64,000 nt of DNA from Escherichia coli (GCF_046105845.1 NZ_CP151004.1), one strand, 5' to 3'. Shown: positions 8,904-21,809, numbered from the stretch's first letter. Notes: a model not told the origin generated them from the sequence alone. A program made the numbers and translations.

Positions 8904-9569
8904 TTAACGCAGGCTTTGCGGCAGCAGTTCATCTACCAGTACATTCAGCCAGTGGTGTAGCCCCCACCAGACGCCCGCCAGTAGCAGCGCCAGTGTTACC
9001 AGCCAGAAAAACGGCGAATGCAGCAAAGGGTGCTGACGGGTGGATAACGGCACGTTCAGTACCGCCGTTTCCGGCAGCACGCCAAATGGCGCGACCTGCC
9101 CGTTGAGCGTCGAAATAAGCTGGTCGCGCTCCGGGGCCACCGGATCCTGATAACGCCCGCGAAATCCCAGCAGCAGGACACGGTGAAAGCAGGTCAGCAC
9201 AGCCTGTGCAGGTGCGGGCTCCTGCAACACCTGCTTCATCCGTTCGTACAGCAGCTCGCCTGCCTGCAGGGTGTTGAAGAAATGCGACTGGAGTGGATCC
9301 TTCATCCAGATGGCCTGACCGTCGTCCATGCCGCCACGGCTCAGGACCGTTTCGTCCAGCAGGGCGCACTGTGCGTAAGTTATGTGCTCCACGCTCTCCC
9401 GGCTGAACCCGGCATCTTTCAGGCGTTCGCGGACCCCTTCCACCTGCCGCTGGCAGTGGCGATACAGCTCCATACCGTGACGCACGGTGGTTCCCTGACG
9501 CAGTTCCACCACCGTCAGAAACGTGTCGCGCAGCAGCGCGTCGATATTGATATCCGTCTCTTTTTTCAT
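8904..9569 (-). CDS. tssL: T6SS membrane-complex protein TssL (DotU family)
   Basis: 221-aa ORF with a DotU-like cytoplasmic domain and a C-terminal transmembrane segment (FFWLVTLALLLAGVWWGL). Start overlaps the tssK stop by 4 bp. Confidence 0.85.
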   Translation of the reverse strand: MKKETDINIDALLRDTFLTVVELRQGTTVRHGMELYRHCQRQVEGVRERLKDAGFSRESVEHITYAQCALLDETVLSRGGMDDGQAIWMKDPLQSHFFNTLQAGELLYERMKQVLQEPAPAQAVLTCFHRVLLLGFRGRYQDPVAPERDQLISTLNGQVAPFGVLPETAVLNVPLSTRQHPLLHSPFFWLVTLALLLAGVWWGLHHWLNVLVDELLPQSLR

Positions 9570-10903
9570 GTGCGCAGCACCGCAAACAGTTCAGGTTTCA
9601 GGTCGCCCATGGTTCCCGGCGCATAAATCATGCAGCACCCGGACTCCAGCATCGATTTGGCCGCGTCACTGTGCATATCCAGCGCAAAATACTGGTTCTC
9701 CAGTCGCAGCGGCAGCGCCGCCGGAACTGAGGTCAGTGGCACCAGTGAAACACCGTTCAGCGCCACATTGATAAGCAGCGTGACGTCATCAGGCGCACCG
9801 ATTTTGCAGACCAGCGGTAGCTGGTGCAGTACCTGATGTGCCGGCAGAGAGGAACGAACGGACAGGTAAAAATCGGCCTCTTCCCGCAGGCGCGGATCGT
9901 GCAGGTCTGCTTTCCAGCGGTTGCCCGGCAGGGACGCCAGCTCCAGTGCGATCACCCGTGACGGCAGGCTGGCTTCCAGCAGTTCGCTGAGCAGGGAGAA
10001 CAGTGGCGGAAAGACGGTGGACGGCGATTCGTGGACATAGGGCGGAACGGCGCTGACGTTATGTTCAAGGGAAAACGTCAGCAGCGCTCCGGCAAGCCTC
10101 GCCAGCTCCCGCCAGACCAGTTCGGGATGAACTGCCGGGTAGCGCAGGAAATCTCTCAGTACCGGCTCAGCAGAATTCAGCGCGTTAAGCAGCCAGAACA
10201 GGGAGACATCGGCGATGGCGAAGTCCGCCATACGCTGGTTGCTTTCCCGGCGCATCGCCATCAGACGCTGACATTTGGCCCGTAGCTGCAACAGCAGCGT
10301 GTCCAGACGCTGTACCAGTCCGTCATGGGCGTTAAACGCCAGTAACGGTGGAATGTAATCGCCGTCCTGCGTCCAGTTGCCCTGAACATCCCGCACCAGA
10401 CGCGCCAGTGGGCAGGTGATGTAATCCTGATTGTTATCATGGACAAAGCGCAGGGACAGCGCATGACGCTCAACGGCCATATCTTCACTGTCACTGCCGT
10501 AGATATCCTGCACCTTTTGCCATTCCTGACGATAGCGTAGCGGTCTTTCAGTCTGCTCACCCTGACCGAGATTACCGCCGTTACCATGGGCAAGCGGCAG
10601 CGCCAGCAGAACAACCGCGCTGTCGTTCGTCAGCGCGTGCAGATCGCAGGCGAGAGGCAGAACATCGCTCACATCTGAATCGATCAGCGTGCCATCAGCA
10701 AAACGCAGGCGTACTGCCTGCGTTTTCAGCTTTCCGGACGTCAGGGCATCGCGGTCAAAGAGCACATTCGCGATCCCCCACGGATGACGAATACAAAGTT
10801 GCGCAATGCTGTCATTGCTGAACGCTTCCCAGCGGGCCTGCTGCTGAAACTGCTGAGAGGACAGGAATGTCCCCTCAGCCCACAGTGGTCGATGAATTTT
10901 CAT
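9566..10903 (-). CDS. tssK: T6SS baseplate protein TssK
   Basis: 445-aa ORF with a typical TssK N-terminus (MKIHRPLWAEGTFLSSQQFQQQ), positioned between tssC and tssL. Confidence 0.85.
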   Translation of the reverse strand: MKIHRPLWAEGTFLSSQQFQQQARWEAFSNDSIAQLCIRHPWGIANVLFDRDALTSGKLKTQAVRLRFADGTLIDSDVSDVLPLACDLHALTNDSAVVLLALPLAHGNGGNLGQGEQTERPLRYRQEWQKVQDIYGSDSEDMAVERHALSLRFVHDNNQDYITCPLARLVRDVQGNWTQDGDYIPPLLAFNAHDGLVQRLDTLLLQLRAKCQRLMAMRRESNQRMADFAIADVSLFWLLNALNSAEPVLRDFLRYPAVHPELVWRELARLAGALLTFSLEHNVSAVPPYVHESPSTVFPPLFSLLSELLEASLPSRVIALELASLPGNRWKADLHDPRLREEADFYLSVRSSLPAHQVLHQLPLVCKIGAPDDVTLLINVALNGVSLVPLTSVPAALPLRLENQYFALDMHSDAAKSMLESGCCMIYAPGTMGDLKPELFAVLRT

Positions 10904-10920
10904 ATCACACCACTTCCCGG

Positions 10921-12459
10921 TCAGGCTTTCGCTTTCGGCATCTGGGAAACCAGTGACAGGTTGATATCCATCCCTTCAATCTGGAAATGCGGCACGGCAA
11001 AGAGTCTGACGCGGAAGAAGCCCGGATTGTCCTCAATATCTTCCACGATAACCTTGCCGTCGCGCAGCGGGTGAGACGCCTGCAGTTCATCACCCGGATC
11101 GGTCATCTCCGTCACCAGTGTGCGGATCCAGGTGTTCAGTTCCAGTTCCAGTACGCGGCGGTCTTTGGTGGTACCGATATTCTCGCGCTGGATGATTTTC
11201 AGGTAATGCGCAATGCGGGACAGCAGGAAGATATAGGGTAAACGGGCGTTAATACGGCTGTTGGCAGTGGCATCAGCGGTATCATACAACGCCGGTTTCT
11301 GGGCAGAGTTTGCCGAGAAGAAGCAGGCGTAATCGCGATTCTTATAATAAGAGAGCGGAATAAAGCCAAGGTTGGCAAATTCAAATTCGCGGGTTTCCGG
11401 GATCATCACTTCGGACGGAATTTTGACCTGATTGCCGGTGCCGAGATCGTAAAGATGGATGGGCAGATCGGTCACTGCGCCACCTGCCTGTGGACCACGG
11501 ATCTGCACACACCAGCCATTATTCACAAAGCTCTTCACCATATTGGCGGCAAAAGCGAACGAGGCGTTTGTCCACAGGTACTTTTCGTGATCCGGACCTT
11601 TGACTTCTTCCACATAGTTAAAGCTGCGTACCGGCACCGTGTCCGGCCCGTACGGCAGACGCCCCAGTACGCGCGGCATCACTAATCCCACATAGCGACT
11701 GTCATCCGTATCGCGGAACGATTTCCATTTAATATATTCTGCGCGGTCAAAGTAGTTGCCGATATCTTTAATCGCGGCGACTTCTTCCATCGAATTTTTA
11801 AGGAAGAATTTCGGCCCGACAGAACCTATAAATGGCATATGGGAAGCGGCAGACACTCTGGAAATATTGCGCAGCAGGGCAATATCCTGCGGGCTGTTAT
11901 CAAATTCATAGCTGGAAATTAATGAGGCAACAGGTTCGCCACCCGGCGTATCGTACTCCTGAATGTATGTATGACGATATAAACCGCTCTGAATGATTTC
12001 CGGGGAGTCGTCGAAATCCTGACGCAGATGCTCTTTGCTGATATCCAGCAATTCAATTCTGACATTTTTGCGAAAATCAGTGCGCTGTACGACGAACCAT
12101 GTGCCGCGCCACAGCGACTCGACTTTCTGGAATTCAGGATGGTGCATTACCGCATCAAGCTGCTTACTGATTTTCTGATCCAAATCGTCGATATGAAAAT
12201 CCAGCAGGCTCTTGTCGAGCTTGACCACGTTCTCGCCTGATTTCGCCAGACAGGAAAGCAGAACGTGAATCGCCGCTGTCACGCGCTCATCGGGTGAGGC
12301 ATCCGCCAGTGTTTCGCTGTTTTGCCATAAATCTATTTCCTGAATGGAAGACACCGGGGTTAAATTAATTTTATCAAACAGGGACTGATAAACGCCGCCG
12401 GACTCAGTGGTGGTCAGTGTTGCAGTTTCAGAGGTGGCATGTTCTTGTTGTACAGACAT
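10921..12459 (-). CDS. tssC: T6SS contractile sheath large subunit TssC (VipB)
   Basis: ORF of 512-514 aa with TssC-like sequence. I place the start at the third Met (12459) because AAGGAA sits 6 nt upstream; the ORF track starts at 12465. Confidence 0.9.
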   Translation of the reverse strand: MSVQQEHATSETATLTTTESGGVYQSLFDKINLTPVSSIQEIDLWQNSETLADASPDERVTAAIHVLLSCLAKSGENVVKLDKSLLDFHIDDLDQKISKQLDAVMHHPEFQKVESLWRGTWFVVQRTDFRKNVRIELLDISKEHLRQDFDDSPEIIQSGLYRHTYIQEYDTPGGEPVASLISSYEFDNSPQDIALLRNISRVSAASHMPFIGSVGPKFFLKNSMEEVAAIKDIGNYFDRAEYIKWKSFRDTDDSRYVGLVMPRVLGRLPYGPDTVPVRSFNYVEEVKGPDHEKYLWTNASFAFAANMVKSFVNNGWCVQIRGPQAGGAVTDLPIHLYDLGTGNQVKIPSEVMIPETREFEFANLGFIPLSYYKNRDYACFFSANSAQKPALYDTADATANSRINARLPYIFLLSRIAHYLKIIQRENIGTTKDRRVLELELNTWIRTLVTEMTDPGDELQASHPLRDGKVIVEDIEDNPGFFRVRLFAVPHFQIEGMDINLSLVSQMPKAKA

Positions 12460-12517
12460 CAGCATTTCCTTTTCAGTGATCCTTTCTTCTCCGGTTTAAC
12501 CTGAATATCACTTCGGG

Positions 12518-13018
12518 TTAAACGTTCTCCTGCGGCGCAATTTTCGCCAGTTCATCACGCAGTTCTGAACTGAGCGTTGGGTCTTTCAGGATATTTTCCA
12601 GTTCACGGCGAAACGTTGCGTTATCCAGCAGATTGGATTTGAGGTCACGTAATAAATTGCGCATAGCGAGTAATACACGAAGCTGTGGGATATTTTTTGC
12701 TACCTGTTCGGGTTCAAAATCTTTCAGGCTTTTAAATTCAAGCGCGATATTTTGTTCATTACCGCTTCCGCTTAGTGTGTCTTCTACTGTTAAATTAACC
12801 GCAGGCGAAAACTCAGCCATGACACTGTTGAAGTTGTTTTTATTGATATCAATCTTGTCCCGTTCGGACAGCGGACGTTGCTCTTTTCCGTTACTGTAAT
12901 CGCCAACAGCAAGAAGCTTGAGGGGGAGTTCAACTTTCTTTTTAGCATTGCCTGTATGCAGGTCAAGCTTGATATTTACACGAGCGGCGGGAACTTCATT
13001 CTGGAAACTGTCGGCCAT
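12518..13018 (-). CDS. tssB: T6SS contractile sheath small subunit TssB (VipA)
   Basis: TssB-like sequence (ARVNIKLDLHTG...ELPLKLLAVGDY). I place the start at the internal Met (MADSFQ) preceded by GAGGAAAAGG; the ORF track extends to 13045, which remains possible. Confidence 0.85.
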   Translation of the reverse strand: MADSFQNEVPAARVNIKLDLHTGNAKKKVELPLKLLAVGDYSNGKEQRPLSERDKIDINKNNFNSVMAEFSPAVNLTVEDTLSGSGNEQNIALEFKSLKDFEPEQVAKNIPQLRVLLAMRNLLRDLKSNLLDNATFRRELENILKDPTLSSELRDELAKIAPQENV

Positions 13019-13045
13019 ATCCTTTTCCTCATCATCCACTTTCAT

Positions 13046-13657
13046 CAGGAGTGCGAGATAATCACGCGTGTGACTATCCCATAAGGATTATGACTATATA
13101 AAGATAAAAAACAAGAACAAATATAGAGACAGAAATATCATTTATAATTGCTGTGAATAATTATACGTCTATCTCGAAATTATATTATTTGAGAACATCA
13201 TCCCATTTTTAGGCGTTTTAGCTGTTAAGCAGACGGTTAAACCTATACATGTGTATACATGCATGAAAATACTGAAAAACAACAAGATCCACATCACAAA
13301 AATTTATTTTTCAGAATGACGGAATTCATGTTTTTTTCGCAAATTATTCACCATGCAAATATTTAATTTTTTTCATGCTTAATAAAATATGATGTTTACT
13401 CATATGCCAACTATGCTACCTGTTGACGCCACACACCAATACACAAAACAAATGCAACAATCACAAACCATAAAAATAAAATATGATTTAGCTATAGTTA
13501 TCAACAAAATAACATCACCACCATTTATAATTTTACTATTGATAAAAAATAGAAACTACGATAAATAATAAAGCATTACTTACCAATCATTCTTTTAAAT
13601 GATTCTGGAATGCAGTCTCCACTGCATAATTGGGCTGTGTTTTTTAAGGAGCAAGTA
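13046..13657. promoter_or_regulatory. 612-bp strongly AT-rich divergent intergenic region upstream of tssB (minus) and an unknown gene (plus); presumed T6SS operon promoter region
   Basis: Unusually long, AT-rich non-coding stretch between divergent genes. One GATC (13286-13289). A GATAATCAC element at 13066-13074 resembles half a Fur box. No promoter hexamers could be assigned with confidence. Confidence 0.5.
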
Positions 13658-14599
13658 ATGCATACCATTCCTTATTATAGCAATAACACCTCTATGCCTG
13701 TCTGGGTTACTGTTAGCGAAGCAACTGATATTATCAATAAGTATACTAACAGCCATATTAAAGATTGTGACTTATGGCGTTATGCACTTTATGGTCACTT
13801 ACCTCTTTCAATTTATTTCCAGTCACAAATAAAGCTTAGAAAAATTTGCCTGAGCGGCGATGAAATCATGCTGGATAACATCGAAGAAAGCATTATTGAG
13901 AAGATAGCTCAGTTAAGTGATACGTGCATATACAATGGGAAAAATAAAATAATAAAGACAGAAGGTGACTATATTTCCCCAGAGCATCATATTATTGATA
14001 CACCATTAATTGGTCATGAATATATTGTATTACAAAGATTACTTGCTCACTCATTAAAAATACCAAAACCTATTACAGGACAGTATAATTCTCATTATGG
14101 TGTTGTCGTCCGTGAAAATGGAATAATTTATCAGGTCTTCGAATCAACTACACTGGAAAACAGAATAACCCAGCGCCTTCGCCATCTTTCAATCCCCGTT
14201 GCAACATACTTTTACGAATCAACAAAATCCCAGGATCTCAAACAGGCAGGAACCCGGTATTTCCCGGTTTATCATTTTCCTGACGATGCCTGGTTCGTTA
14301 TCAAACGCACTGCTCTTGAGCAATTCATAAATACTTTTCTCCCTCCCACTCATAAAAATACCCCTAAAAATGGAACCCGCATTTCTACACCGCTATCACG
14401 ATTTCTCTGGCTAGCGTGTAAGCACAATCATGATATTAGCGCACTGATGGGGCACCCCTACAAACTCCTCTCCGTGTTCGAAGAATGGGCCCGCTCCGAC
14501 GGTATCACTGAACGACTAAATGGAGATACGCTGAAAACCGCACTGGAACGCGGTTCTCCGGTTTTAGCCTACCGTAACTCCGAATTAATGAAATCCTAA
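13658..14599 (+). CDS. hypothetical protein (313 aa), function unknown
   Basis: Long ORF. ATG at 13658 is preceded by AAGGAG at good spacing; the ORF track begins further upstream at 13610. I do not recognise a family. Transcribed divergently from the T6SS operon. Confidence 0.6.
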   Translation: MHTIPYYSNNTSMPVWVTVSEATDIINKYTNSHIKDCDLWRYALYGHLPLSIYFQSQIKLRKICLSGDEIMLDNIEESIIEKIAQLSDTCIYNGKNKIIKTEGDYISPEHHIIDTPLIGHEYIVLQRLLAHSLKIPKPITGQYNSHYGVVVRENGIIYQVFESTTLENRITQRLRHLSIPVATYFYESTKSQDLKQAGTRYFPVYHFPDDAWFVIKRTALEQFINTFLPPTHKNTPKNGTRISTPLSRFLWLACKHNHDISALMGHPYKLLSVFEEWARSDGITERLNGDTLKTALERGSPVLAYRNSELMKS

Positions 14600-14699
14600 C
14601 TTAGAGTCCAGAAATCCTTACTTAGAGGTCTGCTGCTTTCCTTCGGTAGGTCTGATGATGTTGAATTGACTAGCACATCATCAACTACCGGAGGATAAA

Positions 14700-14885
14700 A
14701 TGACGTCACAACGATTTCTGCGGCTGGCACAGGTTATGGATAAAACCGGACTGAAACGCTCACAGGTCTATGCTTATATGAAAACAGGGGATTTCCCAAA
14801 ATCCGTCAAAATTGGCCCGTCCAGCGTAGCATGGCTGGAATCGGAAATTGACGAATGGATCAATACAAAAATAAATAACCGCTAA
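14700..14885 (+). CDS. AlpA-family phage/island transcriptional regulator
   Basis: 61-aa ORF (MTSQRFLRLAQVMDKTGLKRSQVYAYMKTGDFPKSVKIGPSSVAWLESEIDEWI) matching the small AlpA/MerR-like HTH family. GGAGG SD. Confidence 0.8.
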   Translation: MTSQRFLRLAQVMDKTGLKRSQVYAYMKTGDFPKSVKIGPSSVAWLESEIDEWINTKINNR

Positions 14886-14924
14886 TGTAGTATTCTCATT
14901 ATTAGTTTGTTTGAGGTCATTAAT

Positions 14925-15719
14925 ATGAACGATGATCACGGTATTCTTATGCCTGTCGCACTAAATCAGCTACGGGCATTTGATTTAAATCCACGCCTTA
15001 CCAAAAATCCAGAATATGATGAAATTAAAGAATCGATTCGCAACCGCGGGCTGGATTATCCGCCACAAATAACACAACGTCCGGGAGAATCTTTTTATAT
15101 TATTGCCAATGGAGGTAATACCCGGCTGGCAATACTCAACGAGTTATGGCTGGAAACTCACGATAAAAAATACTGGAATATTGTCTGTCATTTCTGGAAG
15201 TGGCATACAGACTGGAGCATTGAAGAAGGTAATTTACACTGCCTGCTTGGTCATCTCGTAGAAAATGATAAACGCGGTTCACTGACATTTATTGAACGGG
15301 CATTAGGGGTTCAAAGTGCAATAAACCTGTATCAAAGTATCCGGGGAAGCTCACAAAGAGATCTGGTACAAATGCTCTGTCAGGCGGGATATCCAGTATC
15401 CACCACGAAACTAAGTATTATGTCCGCGACTATCACATTTCTTTTACCCTATATTCCGGAAGCACTTTACGGTGGTCTGTCGAGACGTATTATCGATAAA
15501 TTGCTGGCACTTCGTTCCAATACGCTAAAATTCTGGGACAACTTCTGCCAGACGTTGCCTCCCGAAAAGGAACAGCAACTCCCTCTATTTGACGATATTT
15601 TTGCTATGGCCCTGACTCCCTTTAATGAACCGATGACAGGTTTTTCACTGGAGCATATTCAGGATGAGCTGACAGGGATTATCAGCAAGACACTTAATGT
15701 GGACTCTGCCCAGCGATAA
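14925..15719 (+). CDS. ParB/sulfiredoxin-like N-terminal domain protein (putative)
   Basis: N-terminal region (LNQLRAFDLNPRLTKNPEYDEIKESIRNRGLDYPPQI...IIANGGNTRLAIL) resembles the ParB N-terminal domain pattern. Start taken at ATG 14925 (GAGG 8 nt upstream); the track ORF starts at 14907. Confidence 0.5.
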   Translation: MNDDHGILMPVALNQLRAFDLNPRLTKNPEYDEIKESIRNRGLDYPPQITQRPGESFYIIANGGNTRLAILNELWLETHDKKYWNIVCHFWKWHTDWSIEEGNLHCLLGHLVENDKRGSLTFIERALGVQSAINLYQSIRGSSQRDLVQMLCQAGYPVSTTKLSIMSATITFLLPYIPEALYGGLSRRIIDKLLALRSNTLKFWDNFCQTLPPEKEQQLPLFDDIFAMALTPFNEPMTGFSLEHIQDELTGIISKTLNVDSAQR

Positions 15720-15916
15720 CGGGATGGCCAGATTTGCGCCGGTGATATATTCAATGCCTCCGCAATCAACCGCTCACCTTTCGGCCAGTGGCTCCTGAGT
15801 GCATTTGCCAGCGTACCGGAGGCCAGCCCGGCTTTGCGGGAAACCGCTGCCAGCGACGTTCCCTGTTTTTTCAGTGCCGCGATAATATCTGCGGGGTGCC
15901 AGTCCTGCTGCATCAT
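15659..15916 (-). CDS. Ner/Nlp-family small DNA-binding protein
   Basis: Sequence from the internal Met (MMQQDWHPADIIAALKKQGTSLAAVSRKAGLASGTLANALRSHWPKGERLIAEALNISPAQIWPSRY) resembles Ner/Nlp (SfsB-like) regulators. ATGA overlap with the integrase stop; GGGAGGG SD. Confidence 0.7.
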   Translation of the reverse strand: MMQQDWHPADIIAALKKQGTSLAAVSRKAGLASGTLANALRSHWPKGERLIAEALNISPAQIWPSRYRWAESTLSVLLIIPVSSS

Positions 15917-17137
15917 ACTGCCCTCCCACAAACCAGCCGTTCGGACGGGATACCACATACACGCTGGCTCCACCACGCCATCACGTCGGTTCTCTGCTCA
16001 AGATAGGTCGAGCGGTTATAAGCGGCGCGCGTCTGATTAGTATCCGCATGAGCCAGTACAGCTTCTATCACATCAGGGGAAAATCCGGCCTCATTCAGCG
16101 TGGTGCTACCCAGCGCCCGGAAACCATGTGACACCAGCTCCCCGCAATACCCCATACGCCGTAGTGCCTTATTGACCGTTTCGCTATTCATTGGTTGCGA
16201 GGGCTTAACCCGACCCGGAAACAGGAACGGCGAGTGTCCACTTATCGGTTTAAGTTGCTCCAGTATCCACAGCATTTCATCAGTCAGGGGCACCAGATGC
16301 TCACGGCGTTTTTTCATACGCTCAGCCGGAATAGTCCATAGCTTTTTCTCCGTATCAATCTCACGCCACATGGTGCCTGACGCTTCTCCGGGGCGCACCA
16401 GCGTCAGCAACTGCCACTTAATCAGATAACGAGTCATCAGCGATAGATTGGTGGTTTCAATCCGCTGTACCAGCTCCGGCAGGCGTTCCGGGCGGATAGA
16501 CGCCATATGCTGTTTTTTCGGCTTCTCAAAGACCTTACCGATGGTCGAGGCTGGATTCGCATCAAGCAGGCCGGAATTGACAGCAAATACCATCACTTCG
16601 TTGATACGCTGGGTTAGACGACGCAGGGTTTCCAGCGCACCTCGTGCCCGGACCGGCTCAAGGGCGGCAATCAGAGTATGTGCTTTCAATTCAGCTACCG
16701 GCATCTGTCCGATTGACGGAAGAACATCCCGTTCCATCGAACGCCAGATATCATCTGCATGCACTTCTGAAATGCCACTGGTCTTTTTAATAGCAAACCA
16801 TCTTGTCGCCACATTGATAAACAGGCTGTCGATTGCTTTCTTTTCCTGTTCTGCGGCTTCCTGCTCCAGCTTTTTCGGATCTACACCCTGAGCCAGCAGA
16901 CCAAGATATTCATCATGTACTGCGGGCAGCAGCAAGAGTTACAGCAGGATAATAACCCAGCGTGATATTGGTACGGGCAGTGGAGTTTGGACGCTGGTAA
17001 CGAAAACGCCAGATTTTCTTCCCGGAAGTACGAACAGAAAGCGTCAGACCATGCCCGTCAGGCAGGTCGTAATCTTTATCGGCGGGTTTTGCTTTTTGTA
17101 CTGCGGCAGCAGTCAGCAGGCGGCGGGTAATGGTCAT
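15913..17137 (-). pseudogene. int: P4-type tyrosine integrase interrupted by a frameshift (N-terminal 74-aa ORF plus 340-aa C-terminal ORF in another frame)
   Basis: ORF 16913-17137 encodes a typical P4-integrase N-terminus (AVQKAKPADKDYDLPDGHGLTL...GYYPAVTLAAAR). ORF 15913-16935 encodes the rest, including the catalytic region (HGFRALGSTTL...LAHADTNQT...Y). The frames overlap at 16913-16935 next to a GGG run (16924-16926). Could also be a homopolymer sequencing error. Confidence 0.75.
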
Positions 17138-17220
17138 GATTTACTCCTCAGTTATCGTCAATGTTAAGCGACGAGGCTGACGTAATATCCTGTTCCACCA
17201 CCACTTTTTCAGCCATAAAC

Positions 17221-17280
17221 TCAGAAATGGCCTACGAAATTTGTCCTCTGGTCGCATAGGCCATTTCATGGGCCATTTTG
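17221..17280. repeat. cluster of short repeats AAATGGCCYA (one direct, two inverted) between integrase and aspV
   Basis: AAATGGCCTA at 17224-17233; TAGGCCATTT at 17256-17265; GGGCCATTTT at 17268-17277. Adjacent palindromes GGATACAGGAGTATCC (17285-17300) and AATTTGTCCT/AGGACAAATT (17236-17245 / 17304-17313). Confidence 0.45.
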
Positions 17281-17319
17281 CACCGGATACAGGAGTATCC
17301 AGCAGGACAAATTCAGACG

Positions 17320-17357
17320 AAAAAAAACCGTATCACCTTGATAGCGATACGGTTTTC
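17320..17357 (-). terminator. rho-independent terminator downstream of aspV
   Basis: On the minus strand: CCGTATC-loop-GATACGG hairpin followed by a run of eight T. Confidence 0.65.
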
Positions 17358-17398
17358 TTACTTCACAGGATGTATAAAAACACCCTGAAATTTGTAAG

Positions 17399-17475
17399 TG
17401 GCGGAACGGACGGGACTCGAACCCGCGACCCCCTGCGTGACAGGCAGGTATTCTAACCGACTGAACTACCGCTCC
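17399..17475 (-). tRNA. aspV: tRNA-Asp (GUC)
   Basis: Reverse complement matches E. coli tRNA-Asp (GGAGCGGTAGTTCAGTCGGTTAGAATACCTGCCTGTCACGCAGGGGGTCGCGGGTTCGAGTCCCGTCCGTTCCGCCA). Position next to dnaQ identifies it as aspV. Confidence 0.97.
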
Positions 17476-17503
17476 GCGTTGTGTTCCGTTGGGAACGAGG
17501 CGA

Positions 17504-17532
17504 ATATTACGGATTGCCTCGTCCTTCGTCAA
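17504..17532 (-). promoter_or_regulatory. putative aspV promoter (-35 TTGACG, 17-bp spacer, -10 TAATAT)
   Basis: On the minus strand TTGACG (17527-17532) and TAATAT (17504-17509), about 30 nt upstream of the tRNA 5' end, with an A/T-rich stretch further upstream. Confidence 0.55.
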
Positions 17533-17607
17533 CGATTTTTCTCATCTTTTGAATCGTTTGCTGCAAAAATCGCCCAAGTCGCTATTTTTAGCGCCTTTTA
17601 CATGTAT

Positions 17608-18339
17608 TTATGCCCGCCAGAGGCAGCTTCCGCCCTTCTTCTGCACCAGATCAAGACGGGCTTCATGAGCTGCAAGCTCTTCATCTGTCGCAAAAACAAC
17701 GCGTAACTTACTTGCCTGACGTACAATGCGCTGAATTGTTGCTTCACCTTGTTGCTGCTGTGTCTCTCCTTCCATCGCAAAAGCCATCGACGTTTGACCA
17801 CCGGTCATCGCCAGATAAACTTCCGCAAGGATCTGGGCATCGAGTAATGCCCCGTGCAGCGTTCGTTTACTGTTATCTATTTCGTAGCGGGCACATAACG
17901 CATCGAGGCTGTTGCGTTTACCGGGAAACATTTTCCTCGCCACCGCAAGGCTATCGGTGACCTTACAGAAGGTATTGGTCTTCGGAATATCGCGCTTAAG
18001 CAACGAAAACTCGTAGTCCATAAAGCCGATATCGAACGCTGCGTTATGGATCACCAGCTCCGCGCCGCGGATATAGTCCATGAACTCATCGGCTACCTCT
18101 GCAAACGTGGGCTTATCGAGCAAAAATTCATCGGCAATACCATGTACGCCAAAGGCTTCCGGATCCACCAGCCGATCGGGTTTGAGATAAACATGGAAGT
18201 TATTGCCCGTCAGGCGACGGTTCACCACTTCAACGGCACCAATCTCAATGATCTTGTGGCCTTCATAGTGCGCACCAATCTGGTTCATACCGGTGGTTTC
18301 GGTATCGAGAACGATCTGGCGTGTAATTGCAGTGCTCAT
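17608..18339 (-). CDS. dnaQ: DNA polymerase III epsilon subunit (3'-5' proofreading exonuclease)
   Basis: Translation matches E. coli DnaQ as I recall it ([20 protein letters not shown]...). Start trimmed to the known Met; the track ORF begins 3 codons upstream. Confidence 0.96.
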
Positions 18340-18403
18340 AGCGGTCATTTATGTCAGACTTGTCGTTTTACAGTTCGATTCAATTACAGGAAGTCTACCA
18401 GAG

Positions 18404-18871
18404 ATGCTTAAACAGGTAGAAATTTTCACCGATGGTTCGTGTCTGGGTAATCCTGGACCTGGGGGTTACGGTGCTATTTTACGCTATCGTGGACGCGAAA
18501 AAACTTTTAGCGCTGGCTACACCCGCACCACCAACAACCGTATGGAGTTGATGGCCGCTATTGTCGCGCTGGAAGCGTTAAAAGAACACTGTGAAGTCAT
18601 TCTGAGTACCGACAGCCAGTATGTCCGCCAGGGGATCACCCAGTGGATCCATAACTGGAAAAAACGTGGCTGGAAAACAGCAGACAAAAAACCAGTAAAA
18701 AATGTCGATCTCTGGCAACGTCTTGATGCTGCGTTGGGGCAGCATCAAATCAAATGGGAATGGGTTAAAGGCCATGCCGGTCATCCAGAAAACGAACGTT
18801 GCGATGAGCTGGCTCGTGCCGCAGCGATGAATCCCACACTGGAAGATACGGGCTATCAAGTCGAAGTTTAA
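18404..18871 (+). CDS. rnhA: ribonuclease HI
   Basis: 155-aa product from [23 protein letters not shown] matches RNase HI. Divergent from dnaQ as in K-12. The track ORF is N-terminally over-extended. Confidence 0.96.
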
Positions 18872-19590
18872 GCCTGTGGTTTACGACATTGCCGGGTGGC
18901 TCCAACCGCCTGGCGAATTCGTGGCTTGTTTTTACTCTGTTTCATCGGATTTAGCGTTAAAGGAATAGTCCGTTTCCGGGCGACAATAAGTTGTAAGCAA
19001 CCAAGCGCAGGAATATGCGCATTCAATAGTTTTCCACCGTGTTTGTTCCACGGGAGAACGTGGAAACGGCTGGCGTGTAGCACTTCAAAATTCAACAAAG
19101 AGAGCCAGTCCAGCTGCCGCATCAGAGTAAACATCCGGCTGTTATAAGGCGAGGTTTTTCGCAATACCGGCACAAGTTTGCGTAATCCCATTAAACTGAT
19201 GGGATTGAAGCCACTAATCACCAGCCAGCCATCATCAATCAATACCCGATCGGCTTCACGCAATAAACGATGCGGATCGGTGCACCACGGCAATGTATGT
19301 GCCAGTAGACAAACATCAACGGATTTATCGGCAAAAGGAAGATGAAGTGGGTCCGCCTGCACCTGGACGGGCAGTCCTTGCGCAGAAACATTCACTTGAT
19401 GAGAAACCGCGCACGCTTCGCAATTGATTTCTGCGCTTAAATTGCCAATCTTAAGCAGATGAAAACCATACATTTTAGTGAACCACGGGTTGAGCTGGCG
19501 CTCCAGCGCCTTGCGATAAAGCTCTCCCCAGGGCAAATCGCCCCAGCAATCAGGAGCCACGACAGTTTGAGGGACTCTTGCCGGTTTCAT
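18868..19590 (-). CDS. yafS: SAM-dependent methyltransferase YafS
   Basis: Sequence and synteny (convergent 4-bp overlap with rnhA). Start placed at MKPARVPQ. Confidence 0.88.
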
Positions 19591-19620
19591 CACAACCTTC
19601 CGTTTCACACTGAGAGGTAA

Positions 19621-20379
<759 letters not shown>

Positions 20380-20450
20380 TAAAACTTTCTTGTCATCGGC
20401 TCCGTTCGCCGTTATGATCGGTCGTCTTTTAAGCAACTATTGACACACAC

Positions 20451-21809
20451 ATGAAGGCAAAAGCGATATTACTCGCCTCTGTCCTGCTCGTGGGTTGCCA
20501 GAGTACCGGCAACGTTCAACAGCACGCACAGAGCCTTTCTGCAGCTGGTCAAGGGGAAGCAGCAAAGTTTACAAGTCAGGCACGATGGATGGACGATGGG
20601 ACGTCTATCGCGCCAGATGGTGACTTGTGGGCTTTCATTGGCGACGAGCTAAAGATGGGAATTCCGGAAAATGACCGGATTCGCGAACAGAAACAGAAAT
20701 ATTTACGCAATAAGAGCTATCTCCACGATGTAACTTTACGGGCAGAGCCGTATATGTACTGGATAGCCGGGCAAGTTAAAAAACGTAACATGCCTATGGA
20801 ACTGGTACTACTACCCATAGTGGAGAGCGCTTTTGATCCTCACGCAACGTCTGGCGCCAATGCAGCAGGCATCTGGCAGATCATTCCGAGCACGGGGCGC
20901 AATTATGGTTTGAAACAGACCCGCAATTATGACGCGCGTCGCGATGTTGTTGCTTCAACAACTGCCGCGCTGAACATGATGCAGCGTCTGAACAAGATGT
21001 TTGACGGCGACTGGCTTCTGACCGTAGCGGCTTATAACAGCGGCGAAGGTCGAGTCATGAAGGCAATTAAAACGAACAAAGCGCGTGGGAAATCCACGGA
21101 CTTCTGGTCGTTACCGTTGCCGCAGGAAACGAAGCAGTACGTGCCTAAAATGCTGGCATTGAGTGATATTCTCAAAAACAGCAAGCGTTATGGCGTACGT
21201 CTGCCAACGACCGATGAAAGCCGTGCTCTGGCGCGTGTGCACCTGAGCAGCCCAGTTGAAATGGCGAAGGTTGCAGATATGGCGGGGATTTCCGTCAGCA
21301 AGCTGAAGACATTCAACGCTGGCGTGAAAGGCTCCACGCTGGGCGCAAGTGGTCCGCAGTACGTGATGGTGCCAAAGAAGCATGCAGATCAACTGCGTGA
21401 ATCTCTGGCTTCGGGCGAAATTGCTGCTGTACAGTCGACGCTGGTTGCCGACAATACGCCGCTTAACAGCCGTGTTTACACCGTACGCTCTGGCGACACG
21501 CTTTCAAGTATCGCTTCACGTCTCGGCGTTAGCACCAAAGATTTGCAGCAGTGGAACAAACTGCGCGGATCTAAGCTGAAGCCAGGCCAAAGCTTGACGA
21601 TTGGCGCAGGTAGTAGCGCACAGCGGTTGGCAAACAACAGCGATAGCATTACGTATCGTGTGCGCAAAGGCGATTCGCTTTCAAGCATTGCTAAACGCCA
21701 CGGCGTGAACATCAAAGATGTGATGCGCTGGAACAGCGATACTGCGAATCTGCAACCAGGCGATAAGCTGACGTTGTTTGTGAAAAACAACAACATGCCA
21801 GATTCCTGA
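20451..21809 (+). CDS. mltD: membrane-bound lytic murein transglycosylase D
   Basis: 452-aa ORF with lipoprotein signal (LLVGC), transglycosylase domain and C-terminal LysM repeats. Confidence 0.95.
   Translation: MKAKAILLASVLLVGCQSTGNVQQHAQSLSAAGQGEAAKFTSQARWMDDGTSIAPDGDLWAFIGDELKMGIPENDRIREQKQKYLRNKSYLHDVTLRAEPYMYWIAGQVKKRNMPMELVLLPIVESAFDPHATSGANAAGIWQIIPSTGRNYGLKQTRNYDARRDVVASTTAALNMMQRLNKMFDGDWLLTVAAYNSGEGRVMKAIKTNKARGKSTDFWSLPLPQETKQYVPKMLALSDILKNSKRYGVRLPTTDESRALARVHLSSPVEMAKVADMAGISVSKLKTFNAGVKGSTLGASGPQYVMVPKKHADQLRESLASGEIAAVQSTLVADNTPLNSRVYTVRSGDTLSSIASRLGVSTKDLQQWNKLRGSKLKPGQSLTIGAGSSAQRLANNSDSITYRVRKGDSLSSIAKRHGVNIKDVMRWNSDTANLQPGDKLTLFVKNNNMPDS

What the first reader, a model, noticed from the sequence alone, without database searches (positions are those of the whole stretch)
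14700..15916. Cluster of three small DNA-binding-type genes (AlpA, ParB-like, Ner-like) between the T6SS operon and the integrase
The AlpA-family and Ner/Nlp-family calls are by sequence resemblance; the ParB-like call is weaker. AlpA and Ner-type regulators usually control excision and expression of integrative elements. Here they sit next to a T6SS operon, which raises the possibility that they have been co-opted to regulate the island.
Basis: partly seen in the sequence, partly recalled or inferred. Interest (0 to 1): 0.45.

Follow-up and report, generated by a model that had tools for sequence, protein, structure and literature searches.

The report
Collapsed conjugative-element relic beside T6SS
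The three small DNA-binding genes are real, but they are most likely the two leftover ends of a large conjugative element that deleted its own middle after inserting at the aspV tRNA gene, not dedicated regulators of the neighbouring type VI secretion system.

Summary
All three genes exist at the stated coordinates, and the family calls hold. They are AlpA (Pfam PF05930), a ParB-fold protein and a Ner/HTH_35 protein. The protein is the N-terminal CTP-clamp half of a BisD-type ICE regulator (NCBIfam TIGR03764, 272 bits against a cut-off of 144).

Full-length relatives are 414-489 aa and are followed by BisC (DUF2857). Here homology stops at residue 260. The convergent ner gene loses homology at residue 67-68 of 116, so both breaks fall within window 15705-15713. 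That is a deletion junction.

Salmonella has the intact counterpart at the same tRNA-Asp: int (97% identical), then ner, facing a PFGI-1-class relaxase and transfer genes. The cluster, together with an upstream 313-aa gene and the integrase, is therefore a collapsed PFGI-1/ICEclc-class ICE. The integrase carries a 2-bp frameshift in this window.

The same T6SS occurs in 1293 of 5426 complete E. coli genomes. It sat at metV without these genes in the two inspected, and only two genomes have damaged copies of the module beside it. Co-option as T6SS regulators is not supported.

A side observation remains open: this ICE regulatory end repeatedly adjoins T6SS clusters in other genera.

The parts
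12518..13018 (-). tssB, the first gene of the T6SS sheath operon (context only). Similarity to the common metV-located E. coli T6SS ends at 13042-13043, about 25 bp upstream of the tssB start.
13019..13657 (.). AT-rich (30% GC) divergent intergenic region between tssB and the 313-aa gene. It is found only in the aspV-located form of the island.
13658..14599 (+). Conserved 313-aa gene with no Pfam or NCBIfam family. It lay directly upstream of alpA-bisD-bisC in every enterobacterial ICE examined, which is the position of bisR in ICEclc. Its predicted N-terminus is an Xis/AlpA/MerR-like winged helix.
14592..14630 (+). Two tandem ~16-bp palindrome-like sites (14592-14609 and 14613-14630) upstream of alpA. 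They are conserved in position in 8 lineages, with half-sites that co-vary. They are a candidate operator of the alpA promoter.
14700..14885 (+). alpA, an AlpA-family helix-turn-helix regulator of 61 aa.
14925..15719 (+). Truncated bisD-type ParB-like gene (264 aa). It keeps the CTP-binding motifs GNTR (64-67) and ENDKR (113-117) and the HTH. Homology to full-length relatives ends at residue 260 (nt ~15704). The last 4 codons and the stop come from the antisense of ner.
15705..15713 (.). Deletion junction. bisD-side similarity ends at 15705 and ner-side similarity ends at 15705-15713, with no intervening DNA.
15659..15916 (-). Truncated ner-like gene (HTH_35). The native part is residues 1-67/68, against 116 aa in the Salmonella counterpart. 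The 17-18-residue tail is antisense bisD. The start codon overlaps the int stop (ATGA).
15913..17137 (-). P4-type tyrosine integrase gene. It is disrupted by a 2-bp deletion (one CA of CACA) at about 16921-16923, and is intact (408 aa) in two other E. coli.
17399..17475 (-). tRNA-Asp (aspV), the integration site. Similarity to almost all E. coli genomes resumes at its 3' end.

Best explanation
The cluster is the collapsed remnant of a PFGI-1/ICEclc-class integrative and conjugative element (ICE) inserted at tRNA-Asp (aspV). One end of the ICE, next to the tRNA, carried int followed by a translationally coupled ner-like gene reading inward. The other end carried the element's regulatory operon reading toward int: a 313-aa DNA-binding protein in the position of BisR, then alpA, bisD (a ParB-like CTP clamp and activator), bisC and the transfer genes. 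A single internal deletion removed everything from bisD codon 260 to ner codon 67/68. That removed the BisD activator domain, BisC, the relaxase and the conjugation machinery, and fused the two truncated genes tail to tail at 15705-15713. What remains is an intact AlpA, an intact upstream regulator, a ParB-half protein predicted to be inactive, a Ner protein with a foreign tail, and here a frameshifted integrase. These genes originally controlled ICE transfer competence and integration. They are most likely decaying passengers beside the T6SS rather than its regulators. Shown directly: the family identities, the truncation points, the junction, the intact Salmonella counterpart, and the distribution. 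Inferred: that there was one deletion event, and that the genes have no present function.
For: The protein matches TIGR03764 above its cut-off, and only over the N-terminal half of the full-length families. Relatives are 414-489 aa, and alignment stops at residue 260 in all of them. In Morganella, Klebsiella, Citrobacter and Photorhabdus the order is 300-aa gene, alpA, bisD, DUF2857 (bisC), traR, acaB/TIGR03761, DUF3158, and in Morganella and Klebsiella also ssb. In Salmonella Kintambo the order is tRNA-Asp, int (97% identical), ner (116 aa), facing a TraI_2 relaxase and TraG_N. A second Salmonella, with int at 87%, has an intact set of PFGI-1-class genes (TIGR03760, TIGR03755, TIGR03756, TIGR03757) reading toward int at aspV. 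Nucleotide similarity on both sides abuts at 15705-15713. ICEclc has the same layout and logic: BisR activates the alpA promoter, BisD plus BisC activate transfer genes, and AlpA represses (PMC7423338). In ICEclc the BisD ParB part alone gives no foci, activation or transfer (PMC12409273). The carriers show independent lesions. Here it is the int frameshift. In MEW and O158:H23 it is a nonsense codon in the 313-aa gene plus ISEc31 in bisD'. In LR778147 ISEc31 cuts ner and everything to its left is deleted. An independent collapse with the same topology (alpA, 310-aa bisD', convergent int, tRNA-Asn) is seen in a metagenome contig.
Against: All ORFs of the module are intact in one E. coli assembly (L003). 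dN/dS between the two E. coli alleles is below 1: 0.12 for alpA, 0.20 for the 313-aa gene and 0.24 for bisD'. That selection may, however, have acted in the ancestral ICEs. No attL repeat was found to mark the far boundary of the element. In some related enterobacterial elements int lies at the same end as alpA and reads in the same direction, so the architecture is not uniform across the wider family. Homology of the 313-aa protein to BisR itself could not be tested.
Confidence: 0.78

Rival explanations
1. Co-opted regulators. After the ICE decayed, the 313-aa protein, AlpA and/or the ParB-half protein were retained because they control the divergently transcribed T6SS operon through the shared 640-bp AT-rich intergenic region.
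For: The module is divergent from tssB. The T6SS promoter region here differs completely from that of the metV-located copies. The ORFs are intact here and in L003, and dN/dS is below 1. The same regulatory end adjoins T6SS clusters in Cronobacter, Salmonella, Citrobacter and, as a tssB fragment, Morganella.
Against: The same T6SS occurs in 1293 genomes, and the two inspected lack these genes. Two strains keep the T6SS at aspV with the module wrecked. BisC and the BisD activator domain are absent, and in ICEclc the ParB half is inactive alone. The palindromic sites upstream of alpA have no copy in the tssB-proximal region. The adjoining T6SS clusters are of two different types and are joined at different ends.
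Confidence: 0.1
2. Two unrelated elements juxtaposed. The int-ner pair belongs to one P4-type island at aspV. The 313-aa gene, alpA and bisD' belong to a different element that arrived with the T6SS. The junction joins the two elements rather than the two ends of one ICE.
For: Ner-like genes occur in other contexts. In Morganella and in E. coli asn-tRNA islands ner is coupled to an unrelated 153-aa gene. In ICEKp-like, Photorhabdus and Dickeya elements int lies upstream of the 300-aa gene and reads in the same direction. Base composition differs: ner and int are 53-58% GC, while alpA and bisD' are 43-44%.
Against: Near-identical int-ner in Salmonella is the end of a PFGI-1-class ICE whose genes read toward int. 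The ParB-like protein is a PFGI-1-class marker (TIGR03764). The orientation is exactly what one internal deletion predicts, and the two homologies abut without filler.
Confidence: 0.1
3. Residual mobile-element function. The relic still acts on related ICEs. For example, resident AlpA could repress the alpA promoter of an incoming element as a form of immunity. Alternatively, the integrase, where intact, could still excise the whole island.
For: In ICEclc, AlpA represses its own promoter (PMC7423338). The integrase is intact in L003 and LR778147. The alpA-upstream palindromes are retained.
Against: No attL repeat was found, so there is no obvious partner site for excision. The int gene is frameshifted in this window. 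There is no direct evidence of any kind.
Confidence: 0.07

Closest known systems
ICEclc (Pseudomonas) regulatory left end: bisR | alpA-parA-shi-bisD-bisC (PMC7423338, PMC12409273)
   Same: Both have an uncharacterised DNA-binding regulator gene with no Pfam domain, followed by alpA and a ParB-like BisD with GNTR and ENxxR CTP motifs. In both, the operon reads inward toward an integrase at the opposite, tRNA-proximal end.
   Different: parA and shi are absent between alpA and bisD in the enterobacterial relatives. Here BisD is cut at residue 260, whereas ICEclc BisD is 550 aa with a C-terminal activator domain. BisC and everything downstream are deleted. Homology of the 313-aa protein to BisR was not tested.
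PFGI-1-class ICEs at aspV in Salmonella enterica
   Same: The integration site is the same (tRNA-Asp). The integrase is 97% or 87% identical. In L029, ner is coupled to int. The genes are convergent PFGI-1-class transfer genes.
   Different: The Salmonella elements keep the relaxase and transfer genes. The window has lost them and carries a 2-bp frameshift in int.
Enterobacterial ICE regulatory cassettes (Morganella L009, Klebsiella L023, Citrobacter L022, Photorhabdus L027)
   Same: The 300-aa gene, alpA and bisD are in the same order and spacing. The proteins are 50-54%, 79-90% and 71-72% identical respectively (Klebsiella and Photorhabdus were not scored). The paired palindromes upstream of alpA are the same.
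   Different: Those loci continue with full-length bisD, bisC (DUF2857), traR, acaB and DUF3158. The window stops inside bisD.
CP4-57 AlpA-IntA and PICI AlpA modules of E. coli
   Same: Both have an AlpA-family HTH protein next to a P4-type integrase at a tRNA or tmRNA site.
   Different: In CP4-57, alpA lies upstream of intA and activates it (general knowledge). Here alpA heads a different operon and is convergent with int, about 1 kb away across two truncated genes.
Phage Mu Ner / E. coli Nlp (SfsB)
   Same: The HTH_35 winged-helix domain matches, with 64 of 75 Pfam positions covered.
   Different: The score is below the SfsB equivalog cut-off (97 against 150 bits). The gene is coupled to an integrase, and its C-terminus is replaced by antisense bisD sequence.

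Membership tests
AlpA family (Pfam PF05930) | Phage_AlpA helix-turn-helix domain across the whole small protein | tested here: met
   The match is E 9.7e-26, covering residues 5-54 against model positions 2-51 of 51. PHROG excisionase/regulator families also match.
AlpA family (CP4-57 type integrase activator) | alpA placed upstream of the integrase it activates, reading in the same direction | tested here: not met
   alpA is on the + strand and int on the - strand. They are convergent and separated by bisD' and ner'.
BisD / ICE PFGI-1-class ParB (NCBIfam TIGR03764) | N-terminal ParB-like domain scoring above the curated cut-off | tested here: met
   The score is 271.6 bits against a cut-off of 143.75, covering profile positions 10-249 of 260.
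BisD / ICE PFGI-1-class ParB | CTP-pocket motifs GxxR and ENxxR (G92NTR95 and E136NELR140 in ICEclc BisD) | tested here: met
   GNTR is at residues 64-67. E113 is also invariant, and N114-R117 complete ENDKR in the window sequence. The motifs in ICEclc are described in PMC12409273.
BisD / ICE PFGI-1-class ParB | C-terminal linker plus activator/dimerisation domain (BisDact) | tested here: not met
   The protein ends 4 residues after the last homologous position (260). Relatives continue for 150-230 more residues. The PHROG match covers positions 42-291 of 610.
BisD / ICE PFGI-1-class ParB | Adjacent partner gene bisC (DUF2857) | tested here: not met
   bisC is present downstream in Morganella, Klebsiella, Citrobacter and Photorhabdus. 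Here the next gene is the convergent ner'.
Canonical partition ParB (ParABS) | ParB/Srx N-terminal fold with an HTH | tested here: met
   The AF2 model has pLDDT 88. Foldseek matches Noc, KorB and ParB-CDP 6sdk at E 5e-7 to 3e-5. The Pfam ParBc HMM itself gave no hit.
Canonical partition ParB (ParABS) | Partner ParA ATPase gene and parS sites | tested here: not met
   No gene between tssB and int other than the 313-aa gene, alpA, bisD' and ner'. No parS-like palindrome was found in 12900-17400 other than the alpA-upstream sites.
Ner/Nlp family (Pfam HTH_35, PF13693) | HTH_35 winged-helix domain | tested here: met
   The match is E 4.9e-30, covering model positions 1-64 of 75.
SfsB/Nlp equivalog (NCBIfam NF007670) | Score above the curated equivalog cut-off | tested here: not met
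   The score is 97.4 bits against a cut-off of 150.
PFGI-1/ICEclc-class integrative and conjugative element (as a functional element) | Relaxase, type IV secretion/transfer genes and an intact integrase between att sites | tested here: not met
   No relaxase or transfer genes lie between bisD' and ner'. The integrase is frameshifted. No attL repeat was found. The locus is a relic, not an ICE.
T6SS-dedicated regulators | Co-occurrence with the T6SS across strains that carry it | tested here: not met
   The T6SS is in 1293 of 5426 complete E. coli genomes. The module or parts of it are in 3, and only 2 of those are next to the T6SS, both damaged.
T6SS-dedicated regulators | Regulatory effect on T6SS promoters | not testable with these tools
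   This needs reporter, deletion and secretion assays.

The most novel reading that the evidence does not exclude
The PAI-metV/SPI-20-type T6SS cluster may have been carried as cargo at the regulatory end of this ICE lineage, or co-mobilised with it. In that case the aspV copy in this E. coli arrived, or was relocated, by ICE integration. The T6SS sheath operon would then share a divergent control region with the ICE's BisR-position regulator and alpA, so that T6SS expression was once, and perhaps still is, wired to the ICE transfer-competence circuit.
Probability: 0.22. Interest if true: 0.6.

Novelty: new member of a known kind. Interest (0 to 1): 0.3.

Why it matters
The result turns three vaguely annotated genes ('AlpA family', 'ParB family', 'helix-turn-helix') into a readable history. 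A PFGI-1/ICEclc-class ICE landed at aspV, then lost its interior by one deletion that can be mapped to within about 9 bp. This warns against reading island-borne DNA-binding genes as regulators of whatever lies beside them.

It also extends the recently described BisR/AlpA/BisDC control module from Pseudomonas ICEclc to enterobacterial ICEs. There it has a conserved 300-aa partner gene and a conserved pair of co-varying palindromes upstream of alpA.

The recurring adjacency of this module to T6SS clusters, and the rare aspV location of a T6SS that normally sits at metV, is a testable lead on how T6SS islands move among Enterobacterales.

Tried and rejected
- **Pfam and PDB sequence searches of the ParB-like protein** gave nothing useful. 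The identity came from NCBIfam, PHROGs and the predicted structure instead.
- **Search for an attL copy of the tRNA-Asp 3' end.** I looked in the window, at the left island boundary of strain MEW, and between the T6SS and the 300-aa gene in three other loci. None was found. Whether the T6SS lies inside or outside the ancestral ICE therefore stays open.
- **Search for ICE remnants next to the metV-located T6SS.** I checked the 630 bp between tssB and tRNA-Met and found none.
- **Search for further copies of the alpA-upstream palindromes** in the window, especially near tssB. None was found.
- **Consensus promoter and terminator scan.** It returned fewer promoter-like sites than shuffles and was uninformative.
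- **Rfam scan.** It returned only the tRNA.
- **Genome-contig scan with the single protein.** It returned only two loci, Morganella and Citrobacter.
- **dN/dS between the two E. coli alleles.** It rests on few substitutions for bisD', ner and int, and cannot separate present from past selection.

Full report
**Setting.** The window is an Escherichia coli-type chromosome segment around aspV. tRNA-Asp lies at 17399-17475 (-), followed by dnaQ, rnhA, yafS, gloB and mltD. To the left of the tRNA lies a genomic island. Its visible part is a type VI secretion cluster: tssH, hcp, an OmpA-family gene, tssL, tssK, tssC and tssB, all on the minus strand at about 57% GC. The finding concerns the 1.2 kb between this cluster and a P4-type integrase.

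**Observation.** All three ORFs are there, and none is a chance ORF.
- **AlpA**, 14700-14885 (+), matches Pfam Phage_AlpA over its whole length at E 1e-25.
- **The Ner-like gene** starts at 15916 (-) and matches Pfam HTH_35 at E 5e-30. It scores below the curated SfsB equivalog cut-off, 97 against 150 bits. Its ORF runs to 15659, so it overlaps the end of the ParB-like ORF by 61 nt. Its ATG overlaps the integrase stop codon (ATGA), which can be read directly from the sequence.
- **The ParB-like gene**, 14925-15719 (+), gave no Pfam hit and no sequence hit in the PDB. It scores 271.6 bits against NCBIfam TIGR03764, 'ICE_PFGI_1_parB', whose cut-off is 143.75. An AlphaFold model built on 14 homologues (pLDDT 88) matches Noc, KorB and ParB-CDP structures.

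**What the ParB-like protein is.** TIGR03764 proteins are the 'ParB' of PFGI-1/ICEclc-class integrative and conjugative elements. In ICEclc this protein was renamed BisD. BisR activates the alpA promoter. The alpA operon produces BisD and BisC (DUF2857), which together switch on the transfer-competence promoters. AlpA feeds back negatively (PMC7423338).

BisD has two parts. The N-terminal part is ParB-like and binds CTP through G92NTR95 and E136NELR140. The C-terminal part is an activator and dimerisation domain. That domain plus BisC is what activates promoters, and the ParB part alone gives no foci, no activation and no transfer (PMC12409273).

The window protein has GNTR at residues 64-67 and ENDKR at 113-117. 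It is only 264 aa long. Its relatives are 414-489 aa. In every pairwise comparison homology stops at residue 260, after which the window protein reads SAQR-stop while the others continue. The PHROG match likewise covers positions 42-291 of a 610-position profile. The protein is the ParB half of a BisD, without the activator half and without BisC.

**The neighbours in intact relatives.** In Morganella, Klebsiella, Citrobacter and Photorhabdus the order is as follows:
- an uncharacterised gene of about 300 aa;
- alpA;
- full-length bisD;
- bisC (DUF2857);
- traR;
- an AcaB/TIGR03761 gene;
- DUF3158;
- in Morganella and Klebsiella, ssb and further ICE core genes (DUF3577, DUF3275), of which Photorhabdus has DUF3577.

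The window has the same 300-aa gene at 13658-14599. It belongs to a large family with no Pfam or NCBIfam model. Its model (pLDDT 79) has an N-terminal Xis/AlpA/MerR-like winged helix and an otherwise unmatched fold. It occupies the position of bisR. True homology to BisR could not be tested.

Upstream of alpA, all eight lineages examined carry two tandem palindromes of about 16 bp. Their half-sites differ between lineages but stay mutually complementary. In the window they lie at 14592-14609 and 14613-14630. This looks like the operator of the alpA promoter.

**The other side of the junction.** The Ner-like protein is 71% identical to a Morganella HTH_35 protein over residues 2-67 only. The integrase of a sister E. 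coli assembly is 97% identical to one in Salmonella serovar Kintambo. There the order is tRNA-Asp, int, ner (116 aa), and then, on the opposite strand, a TraI_2/MobH relaxase, a ParA-like gene and TraG_N.

A second Salmonella, with int at 87% identity, shows dnaQ, tRNA-Asp and int facing a full run of transfer genes. Those genes match the curated PFGI-1-class models TIGR03760, TIGR03755, TIGR03756 and TIGR03757. An ICE of the same class as the ParB-like marker therefore integrates at aspV with int reading inward and the core reading toward int. That is also the ICEclc arrangement.

Nucleotide similarity between the window and the Kintambo ner is 91.6%. It runs to 15705-15713 and then vanishes. 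Similarity to the bisD genes of Morganella, Citrobacter and a metagenome contig runs up to 15705. The two homologies abut. One deletion, from bisD codon 260 to ner codon 67/68, explains both truncated genes, their 61-nt antisense overlap, and the absence of everything else.

**Signs of decay.**
- In this window the integrase has lost one CA of a CACA at about 16921-16923. This splits it into 74-aa and 340-aa ORFs. It is intact in two other E. coli.
- In strains MEW and O158:H23 the 300-aa gene has a nonsense codon at position 163. ISEc31 cuts bisD' at codon 158 or so, and ner and int are gone. The T6SS remains.
- In LR778147, ISEc31 cuts ner, and everything to its left has been deleted as far as yafV, including the T6SS.
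- A metagenome contig shows an independent collapse of the same topology at tRNA-Asn: alpA, a 310-aa bisD', and a convergent integrase only 36% identical to this one.
- Salmonella and Cronobacter loci show further variants, cut by IS1 or reduced to alpA', bisD and a bisC/traR fragment.

**Does the module regulate the T6SS?** The tssL-tssB segment of the window occurs at 94-99% identity in 1293 of 5426 complete E. coli genomes. In the two genomes inspected it lies at the metZWV tRNA-Met locus, with tssB about 630 bp from the tRNA and no integrase, alpA or ParB gene. This is the PAI-metV T6SS of the literature, related to Salmonella SPI-20, which sits at aspV (PMC2907695).

Parts of the module occur in only three complete genomes. 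The T6SS therefore does not depend on these genes across the species, and it persists where they are broken. The operator-like palindromes have no copy in the tssB-proximal region.

Some facts favour a link. The module is divergent from tssB across a 640-bp, 30% GC spacer that is unique to the aspV form. Similarity to metV-type strains ends about 25 bp upstream of the tssB start, so the T6SS promoter here is different DNA. dN/dS between the two E. coli alleles is 0.12-0.24. That divergence is far higher than in the flanks, with dS of 0.26-0.62 for the 300-aa gene and alpA. It probably accrued in ICEs before arrival. I rate co-option at about 0.1.

**An unresolved side observation.** The regulatory end of this ICE lineage is repeatedly found next to T6SS clusters.
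- The same T6SS type in the same divergent arrangement occurs in Cronobacter (TssB 71% and TssC 80% identical).
- A different T6SS type, joined through yafT, occurs in Citrobacter (where the ICE start is intact), in Salmonella and in a metagenome contig.
- In Morganella, an 81-codon 5' fragment of tssB (68% identical, E 2e-28) sits 670 bp upstream of the 300-aa gene in the same divergent orientation, next to an intact ICE core.

Two readings fit. In the first, ICEs integrate at tRNA hot spots where T6SS islands already sit. UTI89 has yafT and a T6SS directly at aspV with no ICE, and Salmonella SPI-6 and SPI-20 are at aspV. In the second, the T6SS travelled as cargo, or was co-mobilised, at that end of the ICE. 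No att repeat was found to decide between them. The window's T6SS proteins are 98-100% identical to the E. coli metV type, while the ICE parts have their nearest relatives in Salmonella. This argues mildly for separate histories. I give the cargo reading about 0.2.

**Verdict.** The functional interpretation is not supported. The locus is a relic of a known kind of element. Its interest lies mainly in how cleanly the collapse can be reconstructed, and in the lead on links between T6SS clusters and ICEs.

Noticed in passing
window 1-13042 versus loci L017 and L018: The T6SS in this window is the PAI-metV type. In the two complete E. coli genomes inspected it sits next to the three tRNA-Met genes near mltA. 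Here, and in three other strains, it is at aspV. Similarity to the metV copies ends about 25 bp upstream of the tssB start codon, so the promoter region is different DNA.
   Followed up: partly
L009 8020-8262 (-), Morganella morganii: An 81-codon 5' fragment of tssB (68% identical to the window's TssB, E 2e-28) lies between a ner-like gene and the 300-aa/alpA/bisD genes of an otherwise intact ICE core. It is in the same divergent orientation and at a similar spacing as in the window.
   Followed up: partly
window 14592-14630; also L003, L009, L010, L011, L022, L023, L027 upstream of alpA: Two tandem ~16-bp palindromes lie upstream of alpA in all eight lineages. The half-site sequence changes between lineages but stays self-complementary (for example CCGCGTTGCGG, CCTTATTAAGG, CCTAAGTAAGG). 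They are a candidate operator that co-evolves with its binding protein.
   Followed up: partly
window 13658-14885 versus L003 8728-9961: Between two E. coli carriers of the same island, the 300-aa gene and alpA differ far more (dS 0.26 and 0.62; 92% and 88% protein identity) than bisD', ner, int or the T6SS genes (dS 0.00-0.11). This points to a recombination patch from another allele.
   Followed up: partly
L009 12333-12398 and L023 14168-14241: A large, nearly perfect palindrome with arms of 31-34 nt and a conserved sequence lies between traR and the AcaB-like gene in the Morganella and Klebsiella ICEs. It could be a bisS-like clamp-loading site or an origin. The region is deleted in the window.
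   Followed up: no
L033 (E. coli FAM21845) and 215 other complete E. coli genomes: A different ICE at an asn tRNA, with a VirB-type T4SS, carries the 300-aa gene (frameshifted in FAM21845), alpA, DUF2857 (bisC-like) and traR but no bisD. Cargo genes are inserted between int and the 300-aa gene. The regulatory cassette is therefore shared between two ICE backbones.
   Followed up: partly
L020 13868-14580 (E. coli O145) and L019, L009: A ner-like gene coupled to an unknown 153-aa gene recurs in asn-tRNA islands. In O145 it lies directly beside tssG and tssF of yet another T6SS.
   Followed up: no
window 8257-8370: There is a perfect-register tandem duplication of 57 nt (95% identical copies) inside the OmpA-family T6SS gene. 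It adds 19 in-frame codons.
   Followed up: no
window 17224-17267 and 17316-17364: An 11-nt perfect inverted repeat lies between the integrase start and the tRNA. A hairpin with a T-run lies just downstream of tRNA-Asp inside island DNA, apparently supplying the tRNA's terminator.
   Followed up: no
L032 (Salmonella enterica), 9674-20900: This is another decayed ICE at aspV. It has int, a TraI_2 relaxase and two small genes, followed after a gap by hcp, vgrG, a DcrB-domain gene and a PAAR/Rhs gene.
   Followed up: no
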